Positions 213 to 4,137 of a DNA stretch of 4,207 nucleotides are shown one piece after another. The DNA comes from a virus. Taxonomy: Duplodnaviria > Heunggongvirae > Uroviricota > Caudoviricetes. Numbering within the stretch: the stretch's first letter is position 1; the number at the start of each line of letters is the position of its first letter. Under the pieces are notes generated by a model. That model saw only the letters and a program-made list of their open reading frames with translations. It had not been told where the DNA came from and did no database searches. The position numbers were made by a program, and so were the translations under genes. Location of the stretch: the IMG/VR virus record IMGVR_UViG_2711768074_000024; one strand, 5' to 3'.

Positions 213-761
213 ATGAATGAATTAATTGCGAATCATGACTTCGACTTTCGCCAGTTAGTTACCGCAGCAGAAGGTCAACCGGTAACTGACACCTTCCAGA
301 TTGCCAGGGCATTTGGTAAACGCCATCAGCATGTGATTAGGGCTATTAAATGTTTGAGATGTTCTGAGGAATTCTCGACAACCCATTTTTGGGCCGTCGA
401 GAAAATCAATGACTTAGGTATTTTTGACAAGAAACAGATTTACTACCGCATGGACTTTAGTGGCTTCGTTATGCTGGTTATGGGATTTAACGGGGCAAAA
501 GCCGATGCTGTTAAAGAAGCCTATATCAATGCGTTTAACTGGATGTCAGCAGAACTCCGTAAGTACAGCGAAAGTTATGAAGCAGAACGTAACGCCGTAA
601 TGCTGGAGTACATGAAAGAGAAGGATGTCGCCAGCATGTCAGGCCGTCTGCTCAATCGCTGGGGGAGAACGAAAAAACCTCAATTGCTTGCAAAGCTGGA
701 ACGTCTGGAGAGACAGGGACAGTTTTTATTACCGGGATTCGATAAAGGTATTCAAGCCTGA
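213..761 (+). CDS. rha: Rha-family phage regulatory protein (Phage_pRha-like N-terminal domain with a C-terminal charged, probably helical, extension)
   Basis: The ORF 144..761 translation contains the motif QPVTDTFQIARAFGKRHQHVIRAIKCL followed by FWAVEKINDLGIFDKKQIYYRMDFSGFVMLVMGFNGAKA, which is characteristic of Rha/antirepressor-like proteins (FGKRH..V.R.I core). Start is uncertain: ATG at 213 (MNELIANHDF...) puts the Rha domain at the usual N-terminal position; the ORF track start is GTG at 144, preceded by GAGGA at 130-134. Stop TGA at 759-761. Confidence 0.75.
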   Translation: MNELIANHDFDFRQLVTAAEGQPVTDTFQIARAFGKRHQHVIRAIKCLRCSEEFSTTHFWAVEKINDLGIFDKKQIYYRMDFSGFVMLVMGFNGAKADAVKEAYINAFNWMSAELRKYSESYEAERNAVMLEYMKEKDVASMSGRLLNRWGRTKKPQLLAKLERLERQGQFLLPGFDKGIQA

Positions 762-786
762 CACATTATGCGCTGTATCGTCGCCG

Positions 787-851
787 TATTCCCGCATTAA
801 CCATGACCGTAGCCCGACGGGGAATTCCTTCTGCGTGAGTGTGCGGGAATA
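787..851. other. Perfect 10-bp inverted repeat (TATTCCCGCA at 787-796, TGCGGGAATA at 842-851) around a 45-nt loop with a smaller internal CCCG..CGGG hairpin; potential structured DNA/RNA element
   Basis: Read directly from the sequence. It sits 26 nt after the rha stop and about 100 nt beyond the 3' end of the minus-strand RHH gene. No U-tract follows on either strand, so it is not a classic intrinsic terminator. Confidence 0.45.
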
Positions 852-948
852 ATCAAAAACGATGCACACCGGGTTTTACTGTGCTGACAGACGCAGGGTT
901 ACCCTCATAGTCGCTTTTCCGGTGCGATGGTGGAAGAAACCGGGATGT

Positions 949-1143
949 TCATCCATCATCACTTTGGATTGATGTATATGCTCTCTTTTCTGACGTTAGT
1001 CTCCGACGGCAGGCTTCAATGACCCAGGCTGAGAAATTCCCAGACCCTTTTTGCTCAAGATCGATGTTAATTTGTTCAATCATTTGGTTAGGAAAGCGGA
1101 TGTTGCGGGTTGTTTTTCTGCGGGTTCTGTTCTTCGTTGACAT
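949..1143 (-). CDS. Small ribbon-helix-helix-like DNA-binding protein, YlcI/YnfO (DUF3950)-like, as found next to cos in lambdoid prophages
   Basis: 64-aa ORF MSTKNRTRRKTTRNIRFPNQMIEQINIDLEQKGSGNFSAWVIEACRRRL... has a basic N-terminal tail, then a beta-strand/helix/G-x-S-x-N loop/helix pattern typical of RHH (Arc/MetJ/CopG) folds. The position immediately upstream of cos and antisense to the late genes matches ylcI (DLP12) and ynfO (Qin) in E. coli K-12, as I recall them. ATG is the complement of 1141-1143; stop is the complement of 949-951. Confidence 0.6.
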   Translation of the reverse strand: MSTKNRTRRKTTRNIRFPNQMIEQINIDLEQKGSGNFSAWVIEACRRRLTSEKRAYTSIQSDDG

Positions 1144-1391: not shown

Positions 1392-1401
1392 CATGTCCGG
1401 T
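1392..1401 (-). repeat. R-like repeat, inverted copy (CATGTCCGGT, reverse complement of ACCGGACATG)
   Basis: Direct sequence match. The extended 12-mer AAACCGGACATG is shared with the copy at 1478-1490. Confidence 0.55.
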
Positions 1402-1450
1402 TTCTCTGCAAGTTAACTATATGAAAAATATAAAAACAGGCTGTCCGTGA

Positions 1451-1460
1451 ACCGGACATG
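1451..1460 (+). repeat. R-like repeat, direct copy ACCGGACATG
   Basis: Direct sequence match. Confidence 0.55.
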
Positions 1461-1468
1461 TGCAAAAA

Positions 1469-1477
1469 ACGGACATG
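1469..1477 (+). repeat. R-like repeat, degenerate direct copy ACGGACATG (one C missing)
   Basis: Direct sequence match to the CGGACATG core. Confidence 0.45.
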
Positions 1478-1480
1478 TAA

Positions 1481-1490
1481 ACCGGACATG
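1481..1490 (+). repeat. R-like repeat, direct copy ACCGGACATG, followed by the palindrome ACCGGT
   Basis: Direct sequence match; starts 30 bp after the copy at 1451. Confidence 0.55.
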
Positions 1491-2047: not shown

Positions 2048-3947
2048 TATGATGGCTGCCGTTTCGGTTGCGCTGCAGCCTCTGGTCAGGGTTGTACCAA
2101 TGACGGCAGTTGAATGGGCTGATCAAAATTATTATCTGCCTAAAGAATCTTCATATGGTGAGGGAGAATGGAAAACGCTGCCATTCCAGATCGCCATTAT
2201 GAACTGTATGGGTAACGACCAGGTTCGCACGGTTAACCTGATTAAATCTGCCCGTGTTGGCTATACAAAGATGTTGCTGGGGGTGGTCGGGTATTTTATT
2301 GAGCATAAATCCCGAAACAGTCTGCTTTTTCAGCCCACGGATTCTGCCGCTGAAGATTTTATGAAGTCTCACGTGGAGGCGACGATTCGGAACGTGCCAT
2401 GCCTGAAAGACCTTTCCCCATGGCTGGGTCGTAAACATCGTGACAATACTCTCACGCTGAAACGCTTTTCATCGGGCGTCGGTTTCTGGTGCCTGGGCGG
2501 CGCTGCCGCCAAAAACTACCGTGAAAAATCCGTGGACGTGGTCTGCTATGACGAACTTTCCTCGTTCGAGCCGGATGTCGAAAAAGAGGGCTCGCCAACC
2601 CTGCTGGGGGATAAGCGTATTGAGGGGTCGGTGTGGCCAAAATCCATTCGCGGCTCGACGCCTAAAATCAAAGGCACCTGCCAGATCGAAAAAGCCGCTA
2701 ACGAGTCGGCGCATTTTATGCGTTTTTATGTGCCCTGCCCGCACTGTGGGGAGGAGCAGTATCTGAAATTTGGCGATGAGTCCACGCCTTTTGGGCTTAA
2801 ATGGGAGAAGGACAGCCCTGAAAGTGTTTTCTACCTCTGTGAACATCATGGCTGCGTGATCCATCAGTCTGAGCTTGACCAGAGCAACGGGCGGTGGATC
2901 TGTGAAAACACGGGCATGTGGACCCGTGACGGTCTGACGTTTTTCAGCGCCCGGGGTGATGAAATTCCGCCGCCGCGCTCCATCATGTTCCATATCTGGA
3001 CGGCGTACAGTCCGTTCACCACCTGGGTACAGATTGTCTATGACTGGCTGGATGCACTGAAAGATCCCAACGGCCTGAAAACCTTTGTGAACACCACGCT
3101 GGGCGAGACCTGGGAAGAGGCCGTGGGCGAAAAACTCGATCACCAGGTACTGATGGATAAGGTGGTGCGTTACACGGCGGCGGTGCCTGCCCGGGTGGTT
3201 TATCTGACGGCGGGCATTGACTCGCAGCGAAACCGTTTTGAGATGTATGTCTGGGGATGGGCTCCGGGAGAGGAAGCCTTTCTGGTGGATAAAATCATCA
3301 TTATGGGGCGTCCTGATGAGGAAGAGACGCTGTTACGTGTGGATGCGGCGATCAACAAAAAATACCGCCATGCGGATGGCACCGAAATGACTATTTCCCG
3401 TGTCTGCTGGGACACCGGGGGGATCGATGGTGAAATTGTTTATCAGAGATCAAAAAAACACGGTGTTTTCCGGGTGCTGCCGGTAAAAGGCGCATCTGTC
3501 TATGGCAAGCCGGTGATCACCATGCCAAAAACCCGCAATCAGCGGGGCGTGTATCTGTGTGAAGTGGGAACGGATACCGCAAAAGAAATTCTCTATGCCC
3601 GTATGAAAGCCGATCCCACGCCTGCGGATGAAGCCACGTCGTATGCCATCCGTTTTCCTGATGATCCGGAGATTTTTTCGCAGACAGAGGCGCAGCAACT
3701 GGTGGCGGAAGAGCTGGTGGAGAAGTGGGAAAAAGGAAAGATGCGTCTGCTGTGGGATAACAAAAAGCGGCGTAACGAAGCGCTGGACTGCCTGGTGTAT
3801 GCCTACGCGGCATTACGTGTGTCCGTGCAACGCTGGCAGCTTGATCTGGCTGTACTGGCAAAATCCCGGGAAGAAGAGACGACCCGGCCAACCCTGAAAG
3901 AACTGGCAGCGAAGCTGTCCGGAGGAGTGAATGGTTACAGTCGCTGA
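2019..3947 (+). CDS. A: Terminase large subunit (lambda gpA homolog; packaging ATPase and cos endonuclease), 642 aa
   Basis: Collinear with lambda gpA as recalled, from the N-terminus (MNIS…TAVEWADQNYYLPKESSYGEGEWKTLPFQ…) to the C-terminus (…KKRRNEALDC…RWQLDL…). Conserved KSARVGYTK (K76-K84, nt 2244-2270) and CYDELSSF (D178/E179, nt 2550-2555), plus HFMRFYVPCPHCGEEQYLKFGD, VNTTLGETWEE and KGASVYGKP. Start ATG at 2019 chosen by homology (MNIS N-terminus) rather than the ORF-track ATG at 1962; it lies inside the 3' end of nu1. Stop TGA at 3945-3947. Confidence 0.95.
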   Translation: MNISEQQLNNMMAAVSVALQPLVRVVPMTAVEWADQNYYLPKESSYGEGEWKTLPFQIAIMNCMGNDQVRTVNLIKSARVGYTKMLLGVVGYFIEHKSRNSLLFQPTDSAAEDFMKSHVEATIRNVPCLKDLSPWLGRKHRDNTLTLKRFSSGVGFWCLGGAAAKNYREKSVDVVCYDELSSFEPDVEKEGSPTLLGDKRIEGSVWPKSIRGSTPKIKGTCQIEKAANESAHFMRFYVPCPHCGEEQYLKFGDESTPFGLKWEKDSPESVFYLCEHHGCVIHQSELDQSNGRWICENTGMWTRDGLTFFSARGDEIPPPRSIMFHIWTAYSPFTTWVQIVYDWLDALKDPNGLKTFVNTTLGETWEEAVGEKLDHQVLMDKVVRYTAAVPARVVYLTAGIDSQRNRFEMYVWGWAPGEEAFLVDKIIIMGRPDEEETLLRVDAAINKKYRHADGTEMTISRVCWDTGGIDGEIVYQRSKKHGVFRVLPVKGASVYGKPVITMPKTRNQRGVYLCEVGTDTAKEILYARMKADPTPADEATSYAIRFPDDPEIFSQTEAQQLVAEELVEKWEKGKMRLLWDNKKRRNEALDCLVYAYAALRVSVQRWQLDLAVLAKSREEETTRPTLKELAAKLSGGVNGYSR

Positions 3948-4137
3948 ACTGCAGGCGCTGCGTCAGGCGCGCCTTGATTTATTAACCGGTAAACGGGTGG
4001 TGTCTGTCCAGAAAGATGGTCGCAGAATTGAATATACGGCGGCTTCTCTGGATGAGCTTAACCGGGCGATCAATGATGCGGAGTCGGTACTGGGGACAAC
4101 CCGACGTCGCCGTCGTCCGCTGGGAGTGAGGTTATGA
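3931..4137 (+). CDS. W: Head completion / head-tail joining protein gpW homolog (68 aa)
   Basis: MVTVAELQALRQARLDLLTGKRVVSVQKDGRRIEYTAASLDEL…RRRRPLGVRL matches lambda gpW in length and sequence as recalled (…[27 protein letters not shown]…). GGAGGAG at 3921-3927 precedes ATG 3931. Overlaps the end of A by 17 nt. Confidence 0.9.
   Translation: MVTVAELQALRQARLDLLTGKRVVSVQKDGRRIEYTAASLDELNRAINDAESVLGTTRRRRRPLGVRL

What the first reader, a model, noticed from the sequence alone, without database searches (positions are those of the whole stretch)
762..948. Conserved hairpin marks a mosaic boundary; possible compensatory base pair relative to lambda
A perfect 10-bp inverted repeat (787-796 and 842-851) encloses a 45-nt loop that holds a second small GC hairpin (CCCG..CGGG around 813-822). 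From memory, lambda has the same element downstream of bor (TATTCCCGGA … TCCGGGAATA) with a paired G->C / C->G difference that preserves the stem. That would be covariation supporting a selected structure. Upstream of the repeat (762-786) this window no longer resembles lambda (rha here, bor in lambda), so the hairpin sits at a module junction.
Basis: partly seen in the sequence, partly recalled or inferred. Interest (0 to 1): 0.45.

Follow-up and report, generated by a model that had tools for sequence, protein, structure and literature searches.

The report
Conserved structured RNA in lambdoid late operons
The inverted repeat is one helix of a roughly 180-base non-coding RNA structure, apparently undescribed, that lambda-like phages keep between their lysis genes and their DNA-packaging genes; base-pair-preserving mutations show the fold is under selection, but what it does has not been tested.

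Summary
The arms are 787-796 TATTCCCGCA and 842-851 TGCGGGAATA, separated by a 45-nt loop. Lambda has TATTCCCGGA/TCCGGGAATA at 46886-46895/46941-46950, so the recalled G/C swap is real.

A single 10-bp repeat is not rare: 17% of shuffled windows contain one. The comparative evidence is what makes it significant.

The repeat is helix P2 of a conserved non-coding unit at about 767-947. The unit has three hairpins:
- H1, made of P1-P4, at 774-866
- Hm at 871-904
- H2 at 918-944

Across 46 distinct variants, 97.9% of pair cells are paired. Nine pairs show changes on both sides. None of 500 shuffles reached these values.

Conserved U·G pairs and fold z-scores favour the + strand, which is the late-transcript sense. 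Indels and shifting frames exclude coding.

The unit sits downstream of Rz in 123 of 123 cases and upstream of terminase in 103 of 103, always on the same strand. It has at least 12 different left flanks and at least 14 different right flanks. About 84% of complete E. coli genomes carry it.

It has no Rfam match and no annotation in lambda or MG1655. The sRNA HnrS is a neighbour in some prophages, not the same feature.

My best guess is a cis-acting processing or stability element of the late mRNA. That mechanism is inferred, not shown.

The parts
767..947 (+). Whole conserved non-coding unit (~180 nt): H1, Hm and H2 with conserved linkers
   Evidence: Alignment A2 of 46 distinct variants has 85% mean column identity while the flanks are unrelated. 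In L008 the direct-repeat unit is 187 nt.
774..781 (+). P1 5' strand (TGTATCGT), outer helix of H1
   Evidence: Pairs with 859-866. 97.3% of cells are paired. U776·G864 is replaced by C-G in 4 sequences and by U-A in Sakai Sp10.
859..866 (+). P1 3' strand (ACGATGCA); contains the ATG at 862-864
   Evidence: The ATG is ATA in Sp10, so a start codon is not conserved.
787..796 (+). P2 5' arm = left arm of the reported inverted repeat
   Evidence: Four of the ten pairs show changes on both sides.
842..851 (+). P2 3' arm = right arm of the reported inverted repeat
808..835 (+). P3 (808-812 CGTAG with 831-835 CTGCG) enclosing the apical region
   Evidence: 98.3% of cells paired. U810·G833 alternates with C-G, and C808-G835 becomes U-A in one lineage. 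Present in the minimum-free-energy folds.
813..822 (+).
   Evidence: Removed by a 10-nt deletion in Stx2_4151/POCJ13.
871..904 (+). Hm, middle hairpin: outer GGGT/ACCC, inner 879-883 CTGTG with 892-896 CGCAG
   Evidence: RNAfold of the middle segment in each variant class. The inner stem reads CCGCG/CGCGG in the commonest class and CAGC/GCTG in Salmonella phages. It is replaced by unrelated sequence in lambda.
918..944 (+). H2 hairpin: stem TCCGGT/ACCGGG, 15-nt loop GCGATGGTGGAAGAA with invariant GAAGAA
   Evidence: Four of six pairs show changes on both sides: CCGGT/ACCGG, CCTGT/ACAGG and TCGAT/ATCGA.
213..761 (+). Left flank (context): Rha-family regulator gene
   Evidence: Pfam Phage_pRha 5e-21, ORF11CD3 4e-23.
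949..1143 (-). Right flank (context): YlcI/YnfO (DUF3950) gene, whose stop codon abuts H2
   Evidence: Pfam DUF3950 8e-19; RefSeq annotation.

Best explanation
The inverted repeat is helix P2 of a ~180-nt non-coding RNA structure. It consists of a long interrupted hairpin H1 (P1-P4), a middle hairpin Hm, and hairpin H2 with a GAAGAA loop. It is transcribed as part of the Q-antiterminated late transcript, between the lysis cassette and the cos/terminase block.

I propose that it acts in cis on that long polycistronic mRNA as a processing or stability signal. H1 has 8 + 10 + 5 bp separated by conserved internal loops, which resembles the bulged hairpins that RNase III cuts in T7 and lambda mRNAs. 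Cutting or exonuclease blocking there would give the lysis-gene segment a protected 3' end. It would also set the 5' end of the packaging/head-gene segment within an otherwise largely untranslated stretch.

Shown: the structure is conserved by compensatory change, it is non-coding, its orientation and position are fixed, and both flanks are mosaic.
Inferred: the functional strand, and that the element is carried on the late transcript.
Not shown: any cleavage, stabilisation or phenotype.

My confidence is about 0.8 that this is a selected + strand RNA structure and about 0.3 for the specific processing/stability mechanism. The figure below is the combined value.
For: - Structure under selection: 97.9% paired cells, 9 pairs with changes on both sides, 0 of 500 shuffles reaching the observed values, slid controls at 30-61% paired. 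RNAalifold is consistent.
- Strand: conserved U·G at 776/864 and 810/833 in 38 of 46 sequences, and 113 G·U cells against 19 A·C cells. H1 z-scores on the + strand are -2.2, -2.9, -1.3, -2.5. On the - strand they are -0.3, -3.5, -0.8, -0.1.
- Non-coding: variant lengths of 168-185 nt differ by non-multiples of 3, no frame is open in all sequences, and ATG becomes ATA in Sp10.
- Position: Rz lies upstream on the same strand in 123 of 123 instances and terminase downstream on the same strand in 103 of 103. This holds across lambda, 434, the HK97-like mEp460, 933W-like podoviruses and Salmonella ES18. The element starts 10 nt after the Rz stop in Stx1_14744 and Sp10.
- No intrinsic terminator or sigma-70 promoter pattern lies inside H1, Hm or H2; the one promoter-like match in the stretch (884-911) is discussed under the trans-acting RNA rival.
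- Because the terminase types differ among these phages, a host factor is a more likely partner than a phage protein (inference).
Against: - No experimental end-mapping or RNase data could be reached for this site.
- The whole 187-nt stretch does not fold better than shuffles.
- P1 + P2 give only 18 bp, interrupted by a 5/7-nt internal loop, which is marginal for RNase III.
- The compensatory changes probably trace to about ten independent events, so statistical power is modest and the sequences are related.
- Lambda's own copy folds equally well on the - strand.
- Lambda and one other class lack the Hm hairpin, so not every part is required.
- The held papers searched (lambda RIL-seq, EHEC Hfq CRAC) report no RNA feature here.
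Confidence: 0.4

Rival explanations
1. The element is the gene or precursor of a stable trans-acting non-coding RNA. It would be excised from the late transcript, or made from an unrecognised promoter. Its conserved single-stranded segments (AAUCAAAAACGAUGCACACCGGGUUUU and the H2 loop GGUGGAAGAA) would then bind a host RNA or protein.
For: Three hairpins with highly conserved unpaired stretches. Lambdoid late regions are known to carry sRNAs such as HnrS, which sits 13 nt to the right of H2 in Sakai Sp10. The element is multicopy in E. coli genomes, with a median of 2 and up to 11 places per genome.
Against: Only one promoter-like match falls in the stretch: 884-911 on the + strand, 9 of 12, with 3 such matches found in 600-1400 against 1.3 +/- 1.3 in shuffles, lying in the variable middle region. 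There is no terminator pattern and no U-tail after H2. No Hfq peak is listed at this site on the + strand in the EHEC CRAC table once coordinates are corrected. No lambda RIL-seq entry was found.
Confidence: 0.2
2. The functional strand is the minus strand. The element would serve as 3' UTR, terminator or insulator for leftward moron transcripts (ylcI, lambdap78, hnrS) that run towards bor or the lysis genes in the lysogen.
For: H2 abuts the stop codon of ylcI in the window and of lambdap78 in lambda. In 434 and lambda, bor lies further left on the same strand. Lambda's copy folds slightly better on the - strand, z -3.5.
Against: The conserved U·G pairs become C·A mismatches on the - strand. 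In Sp10, P2 is lost from the - strand fold, z -0.1. There is no U-tract after any - strand hairpin. In Sp10, hnrS has its own terminator before reaching H2. 933W-like phages and ES18 have no leftward gene to the right of the element.
Confidence: 0.12
3. It is a DNA-level 'linker'. A stretch of shared sequence is kept because it provides homology for swapping modules between phages, with no RNA function.
For: Both ends are mosaic joints, with at least 12 left and 14 right flank classes. Two 91%-identical copies flank a moron in L008. Lambda's p78/p79 block is flanked by H2 and a degenerate H2 copy. Recombinant arm combinations exist, for example a lambda left arm with a 933W right arm giving a G·G mismatch.
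Against: A homology patch does not predict compensatory substitutions, tolerance of G·U but little A·C, or a strictly fixed orientation and position.
Confidence: 0.1
4. H1 controls translation of a short leader ORF starting at the ATG at 862 (MHTGF...), whose start codon is sequestered in P1.
For: The ATG is nearly invariant, and codon-3 positions 867 and 870 vary synonymously (CAC/CAT, ACC/ACA/ACT).
Against: No Shine-Dalgarno sequence lies within 5-10 nt. The ATG is ATA in Sp10. The downstream peptide differs in length (18-45 aa by hand translation) and in frame across H2 among variant classes.
Confidence: 0.03

Closest known systems
RNase III processing hairpins of phage polycistronic mRNAs (T7 early sites such as R1.1; lambda sib and N-leader sites). 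Comparison from my own knowledge.
   Same: An interrupted hairpin of about two helical turns with a conserved internal loop. It sits between gene blocks of a long phage transcript and is recognised by a host factor rather than a phage-specific protein.
   Different: No sequence similarity. Cleavage has not been shown. P1 + P2 give only 18 bp. There are two further hairpins (Hm, H2) with no counterpart in those sites.
HK022 put RNA (cis-acting antitermination stem-loops of a lambdoid phage). Comparison from my own knowledge.
   Same: A lambdoid phage, a multi-hairpin RNA acting on its own transcript, and no protein-coding content.
   Different: put lies just downstream of PL and PR, is about 70 nt long and has two adjacent stem-loops. 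This element is about 180 nt long and lies deep in the late operon. No Rfam family matched here.
HnrS (EcOnc10/11/12), a 66-nt Hfq-dependent sRNA of EHEC prophages (PMC13502914; PMC4104026 Table S2)
   Same: It occupies the same late-region gap between Rz and terminase. In Sakai Sp10 and Stx1_14744 it sits 13 nt to the right of H2.
   Different: It is on the opposite strand, has unrelated sequence, and has its own intrinsic terminator. It is absent from the window. The published coordinates appear to fall inside the element only because they refer to NC_002695.1, about 142 nt lower than the current record.
Conserved boundary sequences at module joints of lambdoid phages (Susskind-Botstein linker idea; the mosaicism analyses of Juhala et al. 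2000). Comparison from my own knowledge.
   Same: A short conserved stretch flanked on both sides by interchangeable modules and morons.
   Different: This stretch carries compensatory base-pair changes and a fixed orientation, which a pure homology patch does not predict.

Membership tests
Any Rfam 15 family | Covariance-model match at E <= 1 in the window | tested here: not met
   cmscan of the whole window, both strands, with permissive filters. The only hit is a sub-threshold DicF-like match at 2495-2524 inside the terminase gene; nothing at 762-948.
Intrinsic (Rho-independent) terminator | G+C-rich hairpin with a short loop, followed directly by a U-tract | tested here: not met
   No terminator-like site on either strand in 762-948. 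P2 has a 45-nt loop. The GGGTTTT at 871-877 begins 5 nt after the end of P1 (866).
sRNA gene with its own promoter and terminator | Conserved sigma-70 promoter upstream and a terminator at the 3' end | tested here: not met
   One search finds no terminator pattern in 767-947. It finds one weak promoter-like match (884-911, + strand, 9 of 12) in the variable middle region, against a shuffle background of 1.3 +/- 1.3 per 800 nt. The left flank is unrelated among variant classes.
HnrS sRNA | Sequence containing the 15-nt complement of the mazF 3' end and the CUUCU seed | tested here: not met
   The pattern CTACCCAATCAGTACATT has 0 matches in the window even with 3 mismatches. It is present in L175 and L172, to the right of H2. 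The mazF 3' end was checked.
RNase III substrate | About 20 bp or more of (interrupted) double-stranded RNA | tested here: inconclusive
   P1 (8 bp), P2 (10-11 bp) and P3 (5 bp) are separated by internal loops. This is compatible but marginal.
RNase III substrate | Cleavage by RNase III in vivo or in vitro | not testable with these tools
   No end-mapping data could be reached. Paper searches found nothing for this site.
Protein-coding small ORF | A reading frame kept open, with indels in multiples of three | tested here: not met
   No frame is open in all 46 variants (best 22 of 46). Lengths are 168, 170, 171, 172, 176 and 181-185. There are 1-nt and 10-nt indels in the loop. Annotators call ORFs on different strands and frames.
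Selected RNA secondary structure | Compensatory changes exceeding shuffled and slid controls | tested here: met
   9 pairs and 36 cells with changes on both sides, against 2.9 and 11.3 in shuffles (0 of 500 as high). Slid controls give at most 5 pairs and 10 cells.

The most novel reading that the evidence does not exclude
Lambda and most lambdoid prophages of E. coli, Shigella and some Salmonella phages carry a previously unrecognised ~180-nt structured RNA, a new RNA family, embedded in the late transcript. Its fold, rather than its neighbours, is what selection preserves. It could be the recognition site for a host RNase or RNA-binding protein that sets the relative dosage or timing of lysis versus packaging genes, or the precursor of a stable regulatory RNA.
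Probability: 0.5. Interest if true: 0.65.

Novelty: new member of a known kind. Interest (0 to 1): 0.55.

Why it matters
Lambda is among the most thoroughly studied genomes, yet this stretch (lambda about 46874-47034) has no annotation in the lambda record or in the curated MG1655 record.

A structure kept by compensatory change, present in about 84% of complete E. coli genomes, would be a new handle on three questions:
- how the 26-kb late mRNA is processed or stabilised;
- why morons such as bor/iss, rha, hnrS and ylcI accumulate exactly on either side of it;
- how the expression of Stx-phage late genes is tuned.

There is also a practical use. The element is a precise landmark for the lysis/packaging junction when annotating prophages, and it explains the spurious 'hypothetical protein' calls made across it.

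Tried and rejected
- Rfam scan: no family matched.
- PreS/LPR1, LPR2 and 6S (lambda RIL-seq paper): these are encoded elsewhere, and no supplementary entry covers this site.
- AgvB/AsxR anti-sRNAs: they lie at the pR' moron site, not here.
- EcOnc10-12/HnrS: at first these seemed to fall inside the element on the minus strand. That was a coordinate-version artefact (NC_002695.1 versus .2, about +142 nt). HnrS lies just to the right of H2 and is absent from the window.
- Small ORFs on either strand (MHTGF..., the 46-aa minus-strand ORF, ECs_1218/ORF-84): rejected because of indels, frame shifts and the ATA variant.
- Promoter and terminator scans: no terminator pattern, and only one weak promoter-like match (884-911, + strand) in the variable middle region.
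- k-turn, IHF-site, RfaH ops and H2-loop-to-H1 pairing ideas: I checked these by eye and dropped them, because the motifs are absent or not conserved across variants.
- Genome-contig scan for distant homologues: only Escherichia species gave real hits. Most other hits were lambda spike-in contamination.
- Literature searches for RNase III or late-mRNA processing at this site, the lambda ribosome-profiling paper and the Term-seq supplements: these were not held or returned nothing.
- One of my fold inputs (L124) had wrong coordinates and is ignored.

Full report
**Context of the window.** The window is the right end and left end of a lambda-like prophage.
- Rha-family gene at 213-761 (+).
- YlcI/DUF3950 gene at 949-1143 (-).
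- The lambda cos sequence, with the nick site near 1342/1343. I read this directly against the lambda right and left ends.
- Nu1-type small terminase at 1538-2047, gpA at about 2049-3947 and gpW at 3931-4137.
- The finding lies in the 187-nt gap between rha and ylcI.

**The observation.** The inverted repeat is exactly as described: 787-796 TATTCCCGCA and 842-851 TGCGGGAATA, with 45 nt between them.
- Taken alone it is not remarkable. Dinucleotide shuffles of the window contain 0.24 such repeats on average, and 17% contain at least one.
- The whole 762-948 stretch folds no better than shuffles.
- Lambda (NC_001416) has TATTCCCGGA at 46886-46895 and TCCGGGAATA at 46941-46950 with the same 45-nt loop. 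This lies between bor (46459-46752, leftward) and lambdap78.

**Distribution.**
- BLAST finds the stretch in 435 phage records.
- It is in 4579 of 5426 complete E. coli genomes, with a median of 2 places per genome and up to 11. There are also 695 places on plasmids. In the one plasmid hit I inspected, the H1 part lies beside iss on a ~131-kb plasmid.
- A pattern anchored outside the repeat arms retrieved 120 IMG/VR loci.
- A species-representative genome scan returned only Escherichia as genuine hosts.
- Salmonella phages ES18, SPN3UB and relatives carry a copy about 75% identical.

**Anatomy.** The conserved block runs from about 767 to 947.
- H1 is a long interrupted hairpin. P1 is 774-781/859-866, P2 is the reported repeat, P3 is 808-812/831-835 and P4 is 813-815/820-822.
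- A middle hairpin, Hm, spans 871-904.
- H2 spans 918-944. Its 15-nt loop ends in an invariant GAAGAA.
- Highly conserved unpaired stretches include ATTAAC, TGAGTG and ATAATCAAAAACGATGCACACCGGGTTTT.

**Covariation.** On 46 distinct sequences, the structure I named has 97.9% of cells in standard pairs.
- Nine pairs have changes on both sides.
- No shuffle out of 500 reached any of the five measures.
- Sliding the 3' partners by 1-3 columns drops pairing to 30-61%, with at most 5 such pairs.
- RNAalifold, run without my structure, recovers P1, P2, P4 and a 7-bp H2.
- Examples in P2: pair 795/843 appears as C-G, G-C (lambda) or U·G; pair 791/847 as C-G, U-A or A-U; pair 790/848 as U-A, C-G or U·G.
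- Examples in H2: CCGGT/ACCGG, CCTGT/ACAGG (19 sequences) and TCGAT/ATCGA (Salmonella).
- The sequences are related, and the number of independent events is probably about ten. The evidence is good but not overwhelming.

**Strand.**
- Two U·G pairs (776/864 and 810/833) are kept in 38 of 46 sequences and alternate with C-G or U-A. On the minus strand they would be C·A mismatches.
- Overall there are 113 G·U cells against 19 A·C cells.
- H1 folds better than shuffles on the + strand in four divergent variants (z -2.2, -2.9, -1.3, -2.5). On the - strand only lambda's copy does.
- The + strand is the sense of the lysis and terminase genes.
- In every locus where they can be detected, an Rz homologue lies upstream on the same strand (123 of 123) and a terminase homologue downstream on the same strand (103 of 103).
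- In Stx1_14744 and Sakai Sp10 the element begins 10 nt after the Rz stop codon.
- From established lambda biology, this region is transcribed from pR' under Q antitermination, through cos, into Nu1. This is inference for the present phage.

**Not coding.**
- Variant lengths (168-185 nt) differ by non-multiples of three.
- The loop carries 1-nt indels and, in one class, a 10-nt deletion.
- No frame is open in all variants.
- The ATG at 862 is ATA in Sp10.
- The peptide that would follow that ATG changes frame across H2 between variant classes.
- Different annotators have called 'hypothetical proteins' here on both strands.

**Mosaic junctions.** The 80 nt to the left fall into at least 12 unrelated classes and the 80 nt to the right into at least 14.
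- Left neighbours include bor, rha, kilA-N, a DUF-type gene, or Rz itself.
- Right neighbours include ylcI, lambdap78/79, hnrS plus ylcI plus an HNH gene, the small terminase gene directly (933W-like phages), or cos within 33-70 nt.
- L008 has two 91%-identical copies 950 bp apart around a moron.
- In lambda, the p78/p79 block sits between H2 and a degenerate second H2.
- The element is therefore a fixed point between two insertion-tolerant sites.

**Known features excluded.**
- Nothing in Rfam 15 matches.
- The lambda record and the curated MG1655 record (borD-ybcV gap) annotate nothing here.
- PreS, LPR2, 6S, AgvB and AsxR map elsewhere.
- The Hfq-bound 'EcOnc10-12' peaks, now named HnrS (PMC13502914), looked at first as if they fell inside the element on the minus strand. 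Those coordinates refer to NC_002695.1. My recollection is that stx2A begins at 1266965 in that version, against 1267107 in NC_002695.2. That gives an offset of about +142 nt.
- The paper states that HnrS is complementary to the last 15 nt of mazF. That places hnrS at L175 about 2443-2508 (-), 13 nt to the right of H2.
- The window has no hnrS.

**Mechanism.**
- There is no terminator pattern in the element, and the only promoter-like match (884-911, + strand, 9 of 12) is weak and lies in the variable middle region.
- The terminase systems downstream are of unrelated types, so a shared phage protein partner is unlikely.
- An interrupted rod-like hairpin with conserved internal loops, in an intergenic and largely untranslated part of a very long mRNA, is what known phage RNA-processing signals look like (T7 RNase III sites, lambda sib; my own knowledge).
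- I therefore favour a cis-acting processing or stability element that separates the lysis segment from the packaging segment of the late mRNA. This step is inferred only.
- The rivals are a processed trans-acting RNA, a minus-strand role for leftward moron transcripts, a pure recombination linker, and a leader ORF. Each is listed with its evidence. The decisive experiments are end-mapping in RNase mutants and compensatory mutagenesis in lambda.

**Verdict.** The feature appears to be an undescribed structured RNA motif of lambdoid late operons. It is real and widespread, and its function is open.

Noticed in passing
L128-L167 (genome-contig scan): Many 'species-representative' genomes of unrelated bacteria carry lambda DNA on contigs of about 3.5 kb or about 48.5 kb. 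Examples are Cohnella, Pedobacter, Polaromonas, Flavobacterium, Pseudomonas, Shewanella and Kitasatospora. This looks like sequencing-control (spike-in) contamination, not real prophages.
   Followed up: partly
L175 2443-2508 (-) = NC_002695.2 about 1946942-1947007; also L172 about 2190-2255: The sRNA gene hnrS (EcOnc10-12) sits 13 nt to the right of H2 in Sakai Sp10 and in phage Stx1_14744, with its own terminator (CTGCTGTG...CACGGCAG followed by T7). The published 2014 peak coordinates are in NC_002695.1 numbering, about 142 nt lower than the current record.
   Followed up: yes
L001 1108-1140 and 2185-2215 (lambda about 47007-47039 and 48084-48114): Lambda's lambdap78/lambdap79 block (~1.07 kb) is bracketed by H2 and a degenerate second H2-like sequence (GGAAGAAACCGGA / GGGAAGAACGCGGGA). 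This suggests insertion by recombination within H2.
   Followed up: partly
L008 5058-5244 and 6008-6194: Two 187-nt copies of the element, 91% identical, flank a ~0.6-kb moron ORF just upstream of cos and Nu1.
   Followed up: partly
window 1392-1490: CGGACATG occurs four times, one of them inverted, against 0.14 expected. One inverted pair forms an 11-bp inverted repeat, 1392-1402/1450-1460. The motifs lie between cosN and the Nu1-like gene and differ from lambda's cosB. They are probably small-terminase binding (R) sites of this phage.
   Followed up: partly
window 945-1022 (+): A 25-codon hydrophobic ORF (MFIHHHFGLMYMLSFLTLVSDGRLQ) starts 7 nt after the GGAAGAA of the H2 loop and runs antisense to ylcI. 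In lambda the homologous frame stops after 7 codons, so it is probably not a gene.
   Followed up: partly
L173 2501-2596 (plasmid pZ0117ECO054-2): On this ~131-kb plasmid, the lambda-derived iss (bor homologue) region retains essentially only H1 (window 774-868) before an IS2 insertion. In total 695 places on plasmids match.
   Followed up: partly
right flanks of L008, L014, L015, L017 and others: A perfect palindrome, GTGCGACCGTGGTCGCAC, recurs a few bases to the right of H2 in several flank classes and also in one left-flank class. Its function is unknown.
   Followed up: no
window 2495-2524 (-): A sub-threshold DicF-like Rfam match (20.2 bits against a gathering score of 48, E 0.48) lies inside the terminase large-subunit gene. 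It is almost certainly a chance match.
   Followed up: no
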